Shown here in pieces: positions 9,001 to 45,000 of a stretch of DNA of 64,000 nt (the stretch's first letter is position 1; each line of letters starts with the position of its first letter). A program made the position numbers. This DNA comes from Mizuhopecten yessoensis (lineage: Eukaryota): NCBI RefSeq assembly GCF_002113885.1, contig NW_018407322.1:3976-67975 (forward strand), read 5' to 3'.

Positions 9001-12000
9001 CGTTTGCACAGACTATACAGACACTTAAATATCGGAAATATTTAGATCATTAGTAACTAAAATTTAATATGTGAATTGAACGGCATTTTTCAATGTTCAT
9101 GCCGATATGATCGCAAATCGGTTACATACATATTCCATGAAGCCCTTATCGTTATGAACATTGCAGAATGCCGTTCAATCCTTACATGAAGTACCGTTTC
9201 GTGATAAAAACATGTTTCCAGTGTCTTAGATAGTTAGTGAGCTACATAATGTCCCTAGTTTCCTTTGGCCTTAGCAACTCATCGATTCCTTATTGTTATC
9301 TCCTCCAATCCTTATTGTTATCTCCACGATTCCTTATTGTTATCTCCACGAATCATTAGTGTTATCTCCACGAATCATTAGTGTTATCTCCTCCAATCCT
9401 TATTGTTATCTCCACGATTCCTTATTGTTATCTCCCCGACTCCTTATTGTTATCTCCACGATTCCTTATTGTTATCTCCTCCATTCCTTATTGTTAAATT
9501 CTCAATTCCTTATTGTTATCTCCTCCATTCCTTATTGTTATCTTCCCGACTCCTTATTGTCACAAAAAACGTTAAAAAGTGTACTATCTCAATACTGTGT
9601 TGTTTTTACAGCTCCCGCATACAAACGCTTTGTAACACCTTTTTCTTCTGTTGTGTCCACAGTTCGGCCATCGAAAGATTTTATACGTTATGTGTTTAAA
9701 GCTTTTCATTGTGAGATCTTATGCTATTTCAATATTGCGTTAAGAGTTCCGCCGTTAAGAGACCTTTTATGATATCTAAATATTGTGTCAACAGTTCCTC
9801 CGTTTAGAGACCTTGTATTATATCTATATAGTGTGTTGTGCCCACAGTAACCCCGTTGAGAGACCTTGTATTATATCTATATAGTGTGTTGTGTCCACAG
9901 TACCTCCGTTTAGAGACCTTGTATTATATCTATATAGTGTGTTGTGTCCACAGTACCCCCGTTGAGAGACCTTGTATTATATCTATATAGTGTGTTGTGT
10001 CTACAGTTCCCCCGTTGAGAGACCTTGTATTATATCTTTATATTGTGTCCACAGTTCCCTTGTTGAGAGACCTTGTATTATATCTATATAGTGTGTTGTG
10101 TCCACAGTTCCCCCGTTGAGAGACCTTGTATTATATCTATTTATTGTCCACAGTTCCCCGTTGAGAGACCTTGTATTATATCTTCATTGTCCACAGTTCC
10201 CCCGTTGAGAGACCTTGTATTATATCTATTTTGTCCACAGTTCCCCCGTCGAGAGACCTTGTATTATATCTATATTGTCCACAGTTCCCCCGTTGAGAGA
10301 CCTTGTATCATATCTATATTGTCCACAGTTCCCCCGTTGAAAGACCCTGTATTATATCTATATATTGTCCACAGTTCCCCCGTTGAGAGACCTTGTATTA
10401 TATCTATATATTGTCCACAATTCTCTCGTTGAGAGACCTTGTATTATATCTATATATTGCCCACAGTTCCCCCGTTGAGAGACCTTGTATTATATCTATA
10501 TTGTCCATAGTTCCCCCGTTGAGAGACTTATACTACCGGGAGTCGATGGATGGCCTGTACTCGTCCGTTACTTTTGTGATTGCCTACGCACTTTACGCCG
10601 TGCCTTTCCACGTGTTCAGCACCGTCTTATTCAGCATCGTCGTCTATTGGTCAGTATAGATGGTCAGCATCATCGTCTATTGGTCAGTATAGATGGTCAG
10701 CATCATCGTGTATTGATACCCGTGACTCTATTTGGAATTAAAATGATGACTGTTTCAAATAATCAAAATAATTTGGTTATTTTCCAAAATTCAGGACAAA
10801 ATAATTTGGTTATTTTCCAAAATTCAGGAGAGATTTGTTTACATGTTCCTATCACCCTAGCGATACAAAGAAATCTTGTTTTCTCCGACAGGGCAACATC
10901 CATGTACAACGACTGGGTAAAGTACGCCATTTTTAACGCCGTCCTCACTCTGCTCCAGTTCGTGTACGAAATGCTGACCATCGGCGCTATGGGCTTTTTC
11001 CTTGACCCACGGCTCGCCATCAACGTGACCACCCTCATCATGACGTTCGGTTATCTCGTATCTTCAGGCCTCATCAGGTATGTACGGTGTACAAGAATCT
11101 TCTCTGAGTACACTATACTCAACAACCTTCTCACTTAAATAGTGTACATGGGTATATGTTGTCTACATCAGCTCTTTCATGTGTGCCTAGCAGTACCCCA
11201 ACATCCGTCATTATGTTTCTGTCGCTCGACTCTATGTGATACATATAGACTTCCTCCGCTAGACTTCTCCCGTACACTTAAGTGTGATAATTAACATCGC
11301 ACGAGTGACGTTGATCATTATGTATTAATCGCAAGGTTGGTCCAGCTATTGGGGTTGCATTTATTCTAGTTTTAAAACATACCATCATTTGCAGCTTAAA
11401 GTCATTTTCTGTTACTTTAAAGGAATTTATTGACACCATTTGTTGTATTTACATGTTGTGTTTTGTTTTTGTTCATTCTTTATTTCAACTAATGACTTGT
11501 AAATTGCGAAGTGGCCATATGGTACTGTAAATGTTAGTTTTGTTTGCCTTTCTACATCAAATTCCCTTTTTTCGTATGTCTACCCATGATTGCAATGCCA
11601 CCATGCTGTATAATAATTATATTCATGTTACTGTTAATCTTCGACCATTTTTGAGATAATTTCGTCTAAGCACTGTCAGATAAAACATCAAAATAGACAC
11701 CCGATATATGTAAAAATAGACACCCGGTATATGTAAAAAAAAAATAAGAGATTTCATTACTCAAGAAGGCTATTCCAATTTTTTCCATTCATTTTAAAAA
11801 TTCTTAACAGAAGAACCTTCTTTCCTGTACGCAACATATTTTTGTACTGAATAGTGATCAATTATAGTATTAAGTAGTGCATTTACTGTATTTGTAATGC
11901 ATCTTGTTTTGTAAAATATAATGCTTAATCATTAGTATGATTTCATTAGCAGGTCTATTGGCCATATGTTCTCCCATTTGTCATCATTAATATCAAAAAA

Positions 12001-42000: not shown

Positions 42001-45000
42001 GGTGATTTGGTCGTATGCTCTACAGTTGATTTGGTCGTCTGTTCTACAGTTGATTTGGTCGTCTGCTCTACAGTTGATTTAGTCGTCTGCTCTACAGTTG
42101 ATTTGGTCGTCTGCTCTACAGTTAATTTGGTCGTCTGCTCTACAGTTTATTTGGTCGTCTGCTCTACAATTGATTTGGTCGTCTGCGTGCCCCACCTCGA
42201 TGATTTTCAATTTCTCGCTTTGAAGTGTGTTTAGTGAAAATCAATGTAATAAAGGTAAGTTGGATGAAACAACCGTGCTCAAATTGATCAGGAAGCTCTA
42301 TTTCTAGAGTAACATAGTTCGTCAAGGTGAAGGCACATAACAGCTATGTTCGCAATAATGTTTGGAAAATATCTCCCCACAATGCTACGTACAACGGCTT
42401 GTTCAGACAATGAAAAATGTTTGCCGATGTCTTGGAGCCGAAAGGAAGTTTTCTGTAGTAAAACTAACTTTCACCATCTACAAAGTTCCCTATAAAATAT
42501 GTAACCATCTTGCTATGTAGACTAATTGCTTCACGATACGTGGTCTTCCAATTTATTGTATAACCATCGTACTTAACGGAACAGGAGTGCCAACCGAGGT
42601 GAACCTTCACTTAATCTTTGGGATGGAAATTATCTGGCAAACCCACTTGTGTACTAAAGACATGAATGACTCCTTTCCAACCACAGTGTCATATTTTTAA
42701 TACAACAACAAGTGAAGTTATATATGACGGTATTGTCATCTCAATATAATTCCTGTTATTAATTTCCTTCCGAGTTTGTCAGTGTATTTGTCATAAATAT
42801 CCCTTTTGCGATTAGCCGATTGGAACTCTTATTGGCGATGAGTTAATCTAAGATAATGCCTTTGTCTTGTTCTACGCCAACGCTTTCTGCCGATATCCAT
42901 TGCCGATCCGTCCTGGGATGTATTTCTCATTTAAACATTGATTTAAGACTTTACCTCTTTTGTGGACGTTATGCTATTTTATTTATGTGTTTCTAATTAT
43001 TGAAAACAAGATCTCAAGAGAAAGAAACATTCTGTAGTATTCACCGCATCCGCCTGGTTACTCCATCTTCATTTGACGCTCGATTTGATAGCGAGGTAGT
43101 GTCCTCATCGTTTGTATTAACTCTTTCCATTGTTTAGTAGACTAGGGAAGTTCCTATTGACAGATTTTAGTAGATACGTCACCCGTATGTCGTCGATATC
43201 CGTTGCAGTGAAATGTTGAACACCTGATACCAGGTGAAACACCTCGAGCCTGCACCTATCTGTTCATCTATGATTATATCTGTGATATCATTTATATGGG
43301 TTAAGTATACATGTCGGTCACTTAAATTGTGTTCAGGACTGTTACATAATCAAGTGTCCTCTTATAGTTACTGGTCCTGCTGGTATAACAAACGTTCTTC
43401 ATCATGAGAATGGGTAAAAGGCCAGATACAAATGAAATGTATATATACAGTATATTTGTTTGAATTAACCTCTTGACTTGAAGAAGCATTTGCATGCAAA
43501 AAACACACATGAAATATTTTAGAAGAATGCTACATTTTAAATATGTTAAGAATGTTATCAAAGCGAGAAGTCTGATGAGCAGTTGGATTCCATTGTGTGT
43601 ATTTATCAATTATTGACATGTATTGGGCTGAGTATGTGATTACATAGTCCTGATAGAGATATTGACCGAGAAGTGGAGCGTGTGAAAATTGTCAGGAGAA
43701 TAGGTATTACATTTGTCAGATCACTGTCGCATTACAACTAATGTGACGTCATACGATACCATTATATCTGTTGTTTCTAAAAATAGTAATTTTAAGTTAA
43801 TATCTGACTTTTCTAAACTATGGAGTTATGTTTGCGGGGTGTCAAATGTCACGTTTACCTGGACCGATATTAAAAATTCGAGTTCTTTTCCGGCCACATT
43901 TTACTGTAAAAATGATGTTTTTTCTTTTGCTAGAGTAAAATACAGATTAGCTATCCACGATATCGATAATACCTATTAGATTTTGTAGGTCACGCTATTA
44001 TATGCAACTGTCCATATCTATACAGTGACAACGTAATATTGCAAATCGTTCCTTTATCATGAATGTGAAACCACCAACCCGTATCGACATATAGTGTGAT
44101 GTGCTGATACAGCTAAGACACTGATCACCTAATCAGATATCCGCGGCTTGCATTATTAACCTCAAAGAAACAAAATATCTGTACATACCTGTATCTTTTC
44201 GTGGTGTAGGATTGTTTGGTCTTGGAAAGTGGACATTAATGAGGATAACGAGATAAGAAAGGGACCTGTGAGCCATCTGTGTAAAGAAGAAGCGGAATAT
44301 TGTATAGATCTTCACACCTTGGTGACGTGAAGAGTTTGAAGGAGACCGGAAGGGCTAAGAATGCGACAGGGAGACGGGTGATGTCCAAGAGATCCGTGGA
44401 CCACTATGTGGCGGGGGCCATGGGAGGTAGGTGGGACCGGACCACTATGTGACGGGGGCAATGGGAGGTAGGTGGGACCGGATCACTATGTGGCGGGGGC
44501 AATGGGAGGTAGGTGGGACCGGACAACTATGTGGCGGGGGCAATGGGAGGTAGGTTGGACCGGACCACAATGTGGCGGGGGCAATGGGAGGTAGGTGGGA
44601 CCGGACCTTGTGTAGGGTATCAGTTTGCGAGTTTGTACCATAAGTCGGTTACTTTTGTAAGTAGATGTGAACAAGTGTGTCAGGGTTTTGCCAGATGCTA
44701 ACTAATTTTAATGTTAATGCTACTGTACTTGACACTCAAGATGCACCAATTGATCAATTTGATAAGAAAATACTGAAATATGACTAATATGGATAAAATT
44801 GCATCGGGGATATAATCACTCACAGACGGGGCGTACGCCTCTCCACAGCTATTAAACGTGAAATTAGGCTACGCAAGATATTGGTGCATAAATGAACTTT
44901 AGATAACATGTCATTTCGTAGCCATCATTTGTGCCGCAAAAGAGATTGATATGTTGTAAGTCAGGTGATCTATTTTTATGAAGGTATCGGCATAATTGAC

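What the first reader, a model, noticed from the sequence alone, without database searches (positions are those of the whole stretch)
9645..44607. Recurring system: tandem repeats seeded exactly on exon-intron junctions, in three different genes
Seen: four independent arrays have a real splice junction as their unit. They are the ABCG5 acceptor 10510/10511 (~17 copies), the ABCG5 donor 10649/10650 (~3), the carrier B donor 36965 (~3, degenerate) and the carrier C donor 44426 (5). In each, only the exon-proximal copy gives the conserved protein, and the extra copies extend into the intron. Several other arrays (7147-7460, 12675-12955, 20235-20490, 21415-) stop within ~10-30 nt of a splice site. 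Established: tandem duplication of AG|GT-containing sequence is a proposed route to intron gain or sliding, and decoy sites can feed nonsense-mediated decay (NMD). Inference: this genome may have a junction-biased repeat-birth process, or may use copy-number-variable decoy splice sites as an expression rheostat. The null explanation is that repeats arise everywhere and junction-spanning ones survive because splicing at the proximal site removes them.
Basis: partly seen in the sequence, partly recalled or inferred. Interest (0 to 1): 0.72.

Follow-up and report, generated by a model that had tools for sequence, protein, structure and literature searches.

The report
Scallop minisatellites that straddle splice junctions
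In a repeat-rich stretch of scallop DNA, three tandem repeat arrays (and perhaps a fourth) began by copying a piece of exon together with its splice site, a pattern already known from human genes and no more frequent here than chance placement would give.

Summary
The window is Yesso scallop (Mizuhopecten yessoensis), not human. It holds an ABCG5-like gene and four SLC25A45/48-like carrier genes. Tandem arrays cover 25% of the window and 36% of its introns.

Three arrays do have a real splice junction inside their unit:
- the ABCG5-like exon 6 acceptor, 10510/10511, with 16 extra copies;
- the same exon's donor, 10649/10650, with one full extra copy;
- the carrier C exon 1 donor, 44426/44427, with 4 extra copies.

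The carrier B case (donor at 36965) shares only 9 exon bases and cannot be established on its own.

Decoy splice sites are as good as the real ones. Every usable decoy leads to an in-frame stop codon, so only the exon-proximal copy gives the conserved protein.

Placement on junctions is not clearly above chance. I observed 3 spanning arrays (4 if carrier B counts) against 1.1 to 2.2 expected under three null models, and threshold-free tests gave p = 0.18 and 0.35.

The kind is already described: the human F7 intron 7 VNTR, and IFI 6-16, CBS, LMNB2 and PDGF. The best reading is that these are tolerated by-products of frequent intronic tandem duplication. Neither a junction-biased birth process nor an expression rheostat is supported, and neither is excluded. 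A genome-wide test and RNA data are needed.

The parts
9745..10527 (+). Acceptor-spanning minisatellite in intron 5 of the ABCG5-like gene. It has 16 decoy copies plus the real acceptor unit. Each unit is about 27-36 nt of intron 3' end followed by the first 17 nt of exon 6. There are two subfamilies: 53-nt units distally and 44-46-nt units proximally.
   Evidence: TRF; copy list; unit alignment. By eye, degenerate older copies reach back to about 9650; this was not tested.
10511..10649 (+). ABCG5-like exon 6 (139 nt), with a repeat array on both of its junctions.
   Evidence: tblastn of P0002 (the M. yessoensis model, which reads ...GFYL|FPPLRD... and ...VVYW|ATSMY...) and of three other scallop orthologues; junction contexts.
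10631..10715 (+). Donor-spanning repeat, 33 nt x 2.6 copies. The unit is the last 19 nt of exon 6 plus the first 14 nt of intron 6. There is one intact decoy donor at 10682/10683.
   Evidence: TRF; sequence; 27 of 28 bases in the junction scan; in-frame TAG at 10657.
44381..44426 (+). Coding part of exon 1 of carrier C (SLC25A45/48-like), encoding MSKRSVDHYVAGAMG(G).
   Evidence: tblastn of Pecten, Ylistrum and Argopecten orthologues P0271-P0273; context.
44398..44607 (+). Donor-spanning minisatellite, 41 nt x 5.1 copies. The unit is the last 29 nt of exon 1 plus the first 12 nt of intron 1. Its 4 decoy donors have the same core as the real donor. The sense strand is G-rich (48% G).
   Evidence: TRF; sequence; decoy list and the TGA at 44450; composition.
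36965..37008 (-). Carrier B exon 2, a 44-nt micro-exon encoding (G)SAGLLVGHPFDTTK.
   Evidence: tblastn of P0274; motif scan; context.
36890..36973 (-). Intronic repeat of two units (39 and 33 nt) that begins at the first base of carrier B intron 2. Each unit boundary recreates CAAAG|GTA. Periodicity reaches 9 nt into exon 2 (8 of 9 identical).
   Evidence: TRF 36890-36956; lag-39 comparison; alignment tests; decoy list. The exon share is too short to prove.
7147..7457 (+). 62-nt array ending 33 nt upstream of the ABCG5-like exon 4 acceptor. Its left end abuts an N run, so its true length is unknown.
12680..12952 (+). 40-nt array ending 23 nt upstream of the ABCG5-like exon 9 acceptor.
20231..20489 (-). 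52-nt array filling 259 of the 396 nt of carrier A intron 4. It ends 6 nt from the exon 5 acceptor.
21417..21566 (-). 32-nt array ending 25 nt upstream of the carrier A exon 3 acceptor.

Best explanation
These are ordinary minisatellites of a very repeat-rich scallop genome.

Origin. Each arose when a short tandem duplication (33-53 nt) happened to include an existing exon-intron boundary, and the duplicated unit then amplified on the intron side.

Why they are tolerated. The splicing machinery keeps using the copy that is joined to the exon body. For donors this is the most upstream site, as shown experimentally for the human F7 intron 7 VNTR. For the acceptor it is the site nearest the downstream donor, that is, by exon definition. 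Any transcript spliced at a decoy carries a premature stop codon and would be removed by nonsense-mediated decay.

Shown here:
- the copies exist;
- the exon sequence is older than the arrays, being identical or conserved in other scallops;
- the introns are older than the arrays, since the four carrier paralogues share the same exon structure;
- the decoy sites are intact;
- every usable decoy gives an in-frame stop;
- the number of arrays on junctions is within what random seeding in short introns predicts.

Inferred: which site is used in vivo, decay of mis-spliced RNA, and slippage as the duplication mechanism.
For: Repeat load. There are 28 array loci covering 25.0% of the non-N window. 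Arrays cover 36% of intronic bases, 17% of intergenic bases and 65 exonic nt.

Exons are ancestral. The exon 6 start FPPLRDLYYRESMDGLY is identical in 4 scallop species. DHYVAGA(M/L)GG is shared by 3 carrier C orthologues.

Introns pre-exist. Carriers A to D share the boundaries GG|(phase 1) and K|(phase 0), but only C and B have copies there.

Decoys are intact. 15 of 16 decoy acceptors keep AG, and the unit alignment shows no extra decay at the splice signals. Donor decoys have cores identical to the real sites.

Decoy use gives stops. All 15 AG-bearing decoy acceptors reach an in-frame stop. The exon 6 decoy donor reads into TAG at 10657. All 4 carrier C decoys read into TGA at 44450. Both carrier B decoys read into TAA at 36958.

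Placement statistics.
- Expected spanning arrays are 1.09 (28 loci, whole window), 1.38 (22 loci, gene spans) and 2.16 (22 loci, arrays collapsed to one unit), against 3 observed. P for 3 or more is 0.093, 0.156 and 0.367.
- KS p = 0.35 and Fisher p = 0.18 on signed distance to the nearest junction.

Precedent. Minisatellites whose first unit spans an exon-intron boundary are described in F7, IFI 6-16, CBS, LMNB2 and PDGF, with the most upstream donor chosen by 5'-3' scanning (PMC1557585; I read the abstract, introduction and discussion).

The M. yessoensis protein model P0002 uses the proximal acceptor and donor of exon 6.
Against: Some tests lean towards an excess near junctions:
- If carrier B is counted, P for 4 or more spanning arrays is 0.022 (whole window) or 0.044 (gene spans).
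- With real, uncollapsed intron lengths, 5 of 19 wholly intronic arrays end within 35 nt of a junction, against 1.12 expected (P = 0.004).
- With collapsed arrays, 8 of 22 lie on or within 35 nt of a junction, against 3.89 expected (P = 0.028).

The 35-nt threshold was chosen after seeing the data. The window itself was picked because of the pattern. Arrays also cluster: four lie within 9283-10829. All three points weaken these P values.

No RNA evidence was available, so exclusive use of the proximal sites is not shown. The decoy acceptors carry CAG while the real acceptor has TAG, so sequence alone gives no reason for the real site to win.

The exon map rests on homology plus GT-AG read by eye. 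UTR exons are unknown.
Confidence: 0.68

Rival explanations
1. Junction-biased repeat birth. Some mutational process, for example slippage favoured at splice-site or polypyrimidine sequence, or a transcription- or splicing-linked lesion, seeds tandem duplications preferentially at or next to exon-intron boundaries.
For: Nominal excesses were seen: 8 of 22 genic arrays lie on or within 35 nt of a junction against 3.89 expected (P = 0.028), and 5 of 19 against 1.12 with uncollapsed introns (P = 0.004). One 139-nt exon has arrays on both sides.
Against: The threshold-free tests are not significant (KS p = 0.35, Fisher p = 0.18). Spanning arrays number 3 against 2.16 expected (P = 0.37). Only 3 of 49 junctions (6%) lie in arrays, against 36% of intronic bases. 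The window was selected post hoc, and local clustering of arrays inflates significance. The exon share of the units (17 of 44, 19 of 33, 29 of 41, 9 of 33-39 nt) is spread as random breakpoints would be.
Confidence: 0.12
2. Expression rheostat. Copy-number-variable decoy splice sites divert part of the pre-mRNA into products with premature stops, and so tune the output of these genes.
For: The decoys are intact (15 of 16 AG; donor cores identical) and every usable one leads to a premature stop. The only decoy acceptor whose use would give an open, in-frame 30-residue insertion (10421) is the one that has lost its AG.
Against: No RNA, population or cross-species data were available. In the best-studied precedent, the downstream identical donors stay silent (PMC1557585, abstract and discussion). 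High similarity between units is expected from array homogenisation alone. The genes involved share no evident regulatory need, and the arrays sit at different junctions in different paralogues.
Confidence: 0.07
3. Assembly artefact. The arrays, or their copy numbers, are products of mis-assembly of repetitive reads.
For: N runs abut arrays: 6337-6443 lies between two N runs, and 7147-7457 starts directly after one. Assembly is therefore strained at arrays, and copy numbers may be wrong.
Against: The copies carry private substitutions and indels, and the acceptor array has two unit subfamilies. Simple assembler stutter would not produce this. The junction arrays lie in gap-free sequence.
Confidence: 0.08

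Closest known systems
Human F7 intron 7 37-bp VNTR, and the IFI 6-16, CBS IVS13, LMNB2 and PDGF minisatellites (Borensztajn et al. 2006, PMC1557585; I read the abstract, introduction and discussion)
   Same: A minisatellite whose first unit spans the exon-intron boundary, so that the authentic donor is followed by identical pseudo-donors. The carrier C array (41 nt, 4 pseudo-sites) and the ABCG5-like exon 6 donor repeat have exactly this layout.
   Different: These are in a mollusc. The exon share of the unit is larger (19-29 nt, against 4 nt in F7). Use of the upstream site is not shown here. The 16-decoy array is on the acceptor side, a case that paper mentions only for artificial globin duplications.
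Alternatively spliced introns arising from tandem arrays (Zhuo et al. 2007, PNAS). I saw only the title in a reference list; the paper could not be opened and its content is recalled.
   Same: Tandem arrays whose units carry splice-site sequences inside genes.
   Different: As recalled, in that work the repeats themselves create new introns or alternative splicing. Here the introns pre-date the arrays, and no alternative splicing is shown.
Intron gain by tandem duplication of an AGGT-containing exon segment (search listing and abstract openings only: PMC3265369, PMC4974935, PMC2891723)
   Same: A short tandem genomic duplication that duplicates splice-site sequence.
   Different: There, the duplication lies inside continuous coding sequence and makes a new intron. 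Here it straddles an existing junction and only lengthens an existing intron.

Membership tests
Minisatellite with its terminal unit spanning an exon-intron boundary (F7 IVS7 type) | Head-to-tail array of units of 10 bp or more, with at least 2 copies | tested here: met
   TRF periods are 44-53, 33, 41 and 33-39 nt, with 16.4, 2.6, 5.1 and 2.0 copies.
Minisatellite with its terminal unit spanning an exon-intron boundary (F7 IVS7 type) | The terminal unit contains exon bases plus the splice site, so the site is reiterated in the intron | tested here: met
   Met for 3 arrays: 17, 19 and 29 exon nt, and 27 of 28 matches in the junction scan. Inconclusive for carrier B, where 9 exon nt are shared and the exon part is not above background.
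Minisatellite with its terminal unit spanning an exon-intron boundary (F7 IVS7 type) | Only the exon-proximal site is used in mature mRNA | not testable with these tools
   No RNA data were available. Indirect support: the species' own model P0002 and the orthologous proteins require the proximal sites, and decoy use gives in-frame stops.
Minisatellite with its terminal unit spanning an exon-intron boundary (F7 IVS7 type) | Copy number varies between individuals | not testable with these tools
   Only one assembly window was available.
Intron gain by tandem duplication of an AGGT-containing exon segment | The new intron is bounded by the two copies of a segment that was previously continuous coding sequence | tested here: not met
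   The introns that carry the carrier arrays are at positions shared by paralogues A to D, which have no copies there. The arrays lie within pre-existing introns.
Regulated unproductive splicing through decoy sites coupled to nonsense-mediated decay | Use of the alternative site introduces a premature stop | tested here: met
   All 15 AG-bearing decoy acceptors and all 7 decoy donors read into an in-frame stop.
Regulated unproductive splicing through decoy sites coupled to nonsense-mediated decay | The alternative site is actually used, and its use is regulated or conserved | not testable with these tools
   No transcript, population or orthologous genomic sequence was available.
ABCG half-transporter (ABCG5-like), the host gene | Sequence match to named ABCG5-like proteins along the nucleotide-binding and membrane parts | tested here: met
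   100% identity to the M. yessoensis ABCG5-like protein P0002, and 91-93% to three other scallops. Nine exons were mapped.
Mitochondrial carrier (SLC25A45/48-like), the host genes | Mito_carr repeats | tested here: met
   Pfam PF00153, E = 2.9e-33, on carrier C exon 5. Orthologues are named SLC25A45-like or SLC25A48-like.

The most novel reading that the evidence does not exclude
Scallop genomes may carry a genome-wide excess of minisatellites seeded on splice junctions, including long acceptor-side arrays. Their intact decoy sites would divert a copy-number-dependent share of transcripts into nonsense-mediated decay, acting as a heritable and fast-mutating dial on gene output.
Probability: 0.06. 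Interest if true: 0.7.

Novelty: new member of a known kind. Interest (0 to 1): 0.27.

Why it matters
As it stands, this is a tidy non-mammalian set of examples of a known oddity.

Its use is as a natural experiment. The set offers a real acceptor preceded by 15 intact decoy acceptors that carry at least as good a consensus, and two donors followed by identical decoys. These are ready-made substrates for asking how splice sites are chosen among identical competitors in a mollusc.

There is also a practical point. Such arrays can mislead gene predictors and read mappers in repeat-rich bivalve genomes.

If a genome-wide excess or copy-number effects on expression were found, it would bear on how repeats shape intron growth and gene regulation.

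Tried and rejected
- **Human origin.** Rejected: one exon is 100% identical to an M. yessoensis protein.
- **Ungapped scan of all 48 junctions.** It found no hidden junction duplications beyond the three clear ones.
- **Near-junction arrays continued in degenerate form across their junctions.** Lag comparisons showed they do not. This covers 7147-7457, 12680-12952, 20231-20489 and 21417-21566.
- **Low-score TRF row 54695-54719.** It overlaps the carrier D exon 3 acceptor by 5 intron nt. It is a 12-nt in-frame coding near-repeat encoding TQLQ/TQLH, so I did not count it as a junction array.
- **Intron gain by duplication.** Rejected, because the introns are shared by the paralogues.
- **Selective decay or selective retention of splice signals in the decoys.** The unit alignment shows neither.
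- **N-terminal exons of the ABCG5-like gene.** None were found in 1-2876.
- **A species model covering carrier C exon 1.** Only a partial model, P0276, exists, and it starts at exon 4.
- **Literature on molluscan or acceptor-side junction arrays.** Searches listed none. These are limited word searches of an open-access library.
- **Zhuo et al. 2007.** The paper could not be opened.
- **F7 copy number and expression.** My search for a paper linking them found nothing usable.
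Full report
**Origin and gene content**

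The window is not human. One exon (5546-5809) is 100% identical to 'ATP-binding cassette sub-family G member 5-like [Mizuhopecten yessoensis]' (P0002). It is 91-93% identical to the same protein of Pecten maximus, Ylistrum balloti and Argopecten irradians. There are four N runs, at 6064-6334, 6444-7146, 17187 and 29145. I left them as they are.

I mapped genes exon by exon: homologous proteins were run through local tblastn against the window, and I then read GT-AG contexts by eye. I did not build or search a joined (spliced) model. As a result the boundaries rest on homology, phase and GT-AG only.

The result is:
- An ABCG5-like gene on the plus strand with nine mapped exons (about 2887 to 13145).
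- Four paralogous five-exon mitochondrial carriers, named SLC25A45-like or SLC25A48-like in other records: A (minus, 19758-29638), B (minus, 31470-37289), C (plus, 44381-49384) and D (minus, 52189-57685).

This gives 49 junctions, 48 of them between mapped exons.

**Repeat load**

TRF reports 108 rows. At score 50 or more they merge into 28 loci that cover 15,779 nt, or 25.0% of the non-N window.

| Compartment | Bases in arrays | Share |
|---|---|---|
| Introns (non-N) | 10,931 of 30,201 | 36% |
| Intergenic (non-N) | 4,782 of 27,538 | 17% |
| Exons | 65 of 5,285 | 1.2% |

. The 65 exonic bases are the three junction overlaps of 17, 19 and 29 nt.

**The junction arrays**

1. *ABCG5-like exon 6 acceptor (10510/10511).* The first 17 exon bases, preceded by the acceptor sequence, occur 17 times between 9747 and 10511, spaced 44-53 nt apart.
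   - Of the 16 decoys, 15 keep AG. The copy at 10421 has AA, and the copy at 10154 has a one-base deletion but keeps AG.
   - The decoys read CAG where the real site reads TAG, so they are not weaker by sequence.
   - Alignment of the 16 units shows even conservation, apart from a length-variable TA/GT stretch.
2. *Exon 6 donor (10649/10650).* A 33-nt unit (19 exon nt plus 14 intron nt) is present 2.6 times. It gives one further donor with an identical core at 10682/10683.
3. *Carrier C exon 1 donor (44426/44427).* A 41-nt unit (29 exon nt plus 12 intron nt) is present 5.1 times. The four decoy donors have the same core as the real one. All four decoys share one base that differs from the real exon (a synonymous position), and each has one private change. 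This suggests that amplification started from the first decoy.
4. *Carrier B exon 2 donor (36965, minus strand).* Two intronic units of 39 and 33 nt start at the first intron base, and each boundary recreates CAAAG|GTA.
   - Periodicity crosses the boundary with 12 of 13 matches, 9 of them exonic positions.
   - The exon part alone is no better than 25% of 1006 control chunks. A probe that includes the junction is matched by only 0.26% of 1142 control chunks, but mainly through its intron part.
   - I count this case as possible, not shown.

An unbiased scan of all 48 junctions used 14 nt on each side against up to 400 nt of the adjoining intron. It singled out exactly the first three cases (27 of 28 matches; background maxima 16-17). 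Carrier B scored 16 of 28.

**Which came first**

The exon sequences are conserved in other scallops. The start of exon 6 is identical in four species, and the end of carrier C exon 1 is conserved in three orthologues. The arrays therefore copied the exon, not the reverse. The introns are also older than the arrays: carriers A to D share the same boundaries and phases, yet only one paralogue has copies at each affected junction.

**Consequences of using a decoy**

| Decoy set | Number of decoys | Outcome |
|---|---|---|
| Exon 6 acceptor, AG-bearing copies | 15 | Each reaches an in-frame stop before the real exon |
| Exon 6 acceptor, copy at 10421 (AG lost) | 1 | Would have given an open 90-nt in-frame extension |
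| Exon 6 donor | 1 | TAG at 10657 |
| Carrier C exon 1 donor | 4 | TGA at 44450 |
| Carrier B exon 2 donor | 2 | TAA at 36958 |

The species' own ABCG5-like model (P0002) uses the proximal acceptor and donor of exon 6. No model covering carrier C exon 1 was found; the only M. yessoensis model for this gene is partial and starts at exon 4.

**Is the placement more than chance?**

I used three null models.

| Null model | Loci | Expected spanning | Observed | P(3 or more) | P(4 or more) |
|---|---|---|---|---|---|
| Arrays of real length placed at random in the whole window, entering an exon by less than one unit at one end | 28 | 1.09 | 3 | 0.093 | 0.022 |
| The same, within gene spans | 22 | 1.38 | 3 | 0.156 | 0.044 |
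| Every array collapsed to one unit (collapsed introns sum to 20,230 nt) and seeds placed at random | 22 | 2.16 | 3 | 0.367 | not computed |

. Under the collapsed model, further counts were:
- on or within 10 nt of a junction: 5 observed against 2.65 expected (P = 0.11);
- on or within 35 nt: 8 against 3.89 (P = 0.028);
- on or within 100 nt: 10 against 6.97 (P = 0.12);
- threshold-free tests: KS p = 0.35 and Fisher p = 0.18.

With uncollapsed introns, 5 of 19 wholly intronic arrays end within 35 nt of a junction against 1.12 expected (P = 0.004). That null ignores the fact that arrays themselves inflate the introns they sit in.

The nominal excesses depend on a threshold chosen after seeing the data and on a window chosen because of the pattern. 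Arrays also cluster: four lie within 9283-10829. Per site, junctions lie in arrays less often (3 of 49) than intronic bases do (36%). I conclude that this window does not show a junction bias, and that it is too small to exclude a modest one.

**Mechanism**

The best-supported reading is frequent short tandem duplication in introns, with later amplification. The carrier C unit is bounded by a 5-base direct repeat, which fits slippage; this is my inference. A duplication that straddles a junction is harmless if the exon-joined copy keeps being used.

For donors there is direct experimental precedent. In human F7, the first 37-bp unit of the intron 7 VNTR spans the exon 7 boundary. The identical downstream pseudo-sites are functional but silent, and the most upstream site is chosen by 5'-3' scanning. 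The same paper lists IFI 6-16, CBS, LMNB2 and PDGF as further cases, two of which do use one or two pseudo-sites (PMC1557585; I read the abstract, introduction and discussion).

For the acceptor array, I infer that exon definition from the downstream donor selects the nearest AG. Removal of mis-spliced RNA by nonsense-mediated decay is also inferred.

**What stayed unchecked**

- No RNA, population or orthologous genomic data could be reached.
- Use of the decoys, copy-number variation and the age of the arrays therefore remain open.
- UTR exons are unknown.
- The 5' part of the ABCG5-like gene was not found in the window.
- Supplementary files were not consulted.
- The copy numbers are those of a single assembly that has gaps next to other arrays.

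**Verdict**

The features are real and are well explained as new examples, in a scallop, of a known kind. The long acceptor-side array is the least usual member. The 'recurring system' reading is not supported by the statistics available here.

Noticed in passing
19758-57685: Four paralogous SLC25A45/48-like mitochondrial carrier genes (A minus, B minus, C plus, D minus) lie in a row. All have the same five-exon layout, including a 44-nt micro-exon 2 that encodes the first PxD/ExxK motif.
   Followed up: partly
whole window; introns as listed: Tandem arrays cover 36% of intronic bases but 17% of intergenic bases. Carrier A intron 1 (22250-29592) is 69% array: a 62-nt array of 3.2 kb and a 38-nt array of 1.8 kb. 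Much of the intron length in this window is therefore array expansion.
   Followed up: partly
10421: Of the 16 decoy acceptors upstream of ABCG5-like exon 6, only one has lost its AG. It is also the only one whose use would give an open, in-frame 30-residue insertion rather than a premature stop. This is a single case and may be coincidence.
   Followed up: partly
6064-7146: Two N runs flank an 11/44-nt array (6337-6443). The second N run ends exactly where the 62-nt array 7147-7457 begins, so assembly breaks at arrays and the copy numbers here are uncertain. The N runs were left untouched.
   Followed up: no
2877-2948 and 1-2876: The scallop ABCG5-like protein models start at MTLNKFEC (2949). 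The same open frame encodes the Walker A motif (GSGKTSLLD...) directly upstream. Longer relatives (P0112, P0001) have about 82 further N-terminal residues that found no match in 1-2876. The gene probably starts left of the window, beyond the 37-nt array at 4-1881, and the models look truncated.
   Followed up: partly
48892-48912: Carrier C exon 5 has two candidate acceptors 18 nt apart and in frame (48893/48894 and 48911/48912). The partial M. yessoensis model P0276 appears to use the downstream one, and differs from the window's translation by one residue there.
   Followed up: partly
57907-60053 (+): Fragmented open frames of a non-LTR retrotransposon lie just upstream of the carrier D start codon. 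They include a reverse transcriptase domain (Pfam RVT_1, E = 2.4e-16, on 58467-59180) and are split over at least three frames. A possible further RT-tail-like frame at 47475-47687 (minus), in carrier C intron 3, had no Pfam match.
   Followed up: partly
44398-44607: The carrier C junction array is 48% G on the sense strand, with 14 runs of three or more G. As recalled, G runs downstream of a donor act as intronic splicing enhancers in vertebrates, and G-rich repeats are prone to form unusual structures. Neither point was tested here.
   Followed up: no
54695-54719 (-): A 12-nt in-frame near-repeat at the start of carrier D exon 3 (encoding TQLQ/TQLH) runs 5 nt into the acceptor. The LQTQ motif is shared by the paralogues, so this is coding periodicity, not a junction array.
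   Followed up: yes
9283-10829: Four separate arrays (22-nt, 44-53-nt, 33-nt, and a perfect 33-nt x 2.0) crowd around the single 139-nt exon 6. This is a local hot spot of tandem duplication, so the two junction arrays of this exon are not independent events for statistics.
   Followed up: partly
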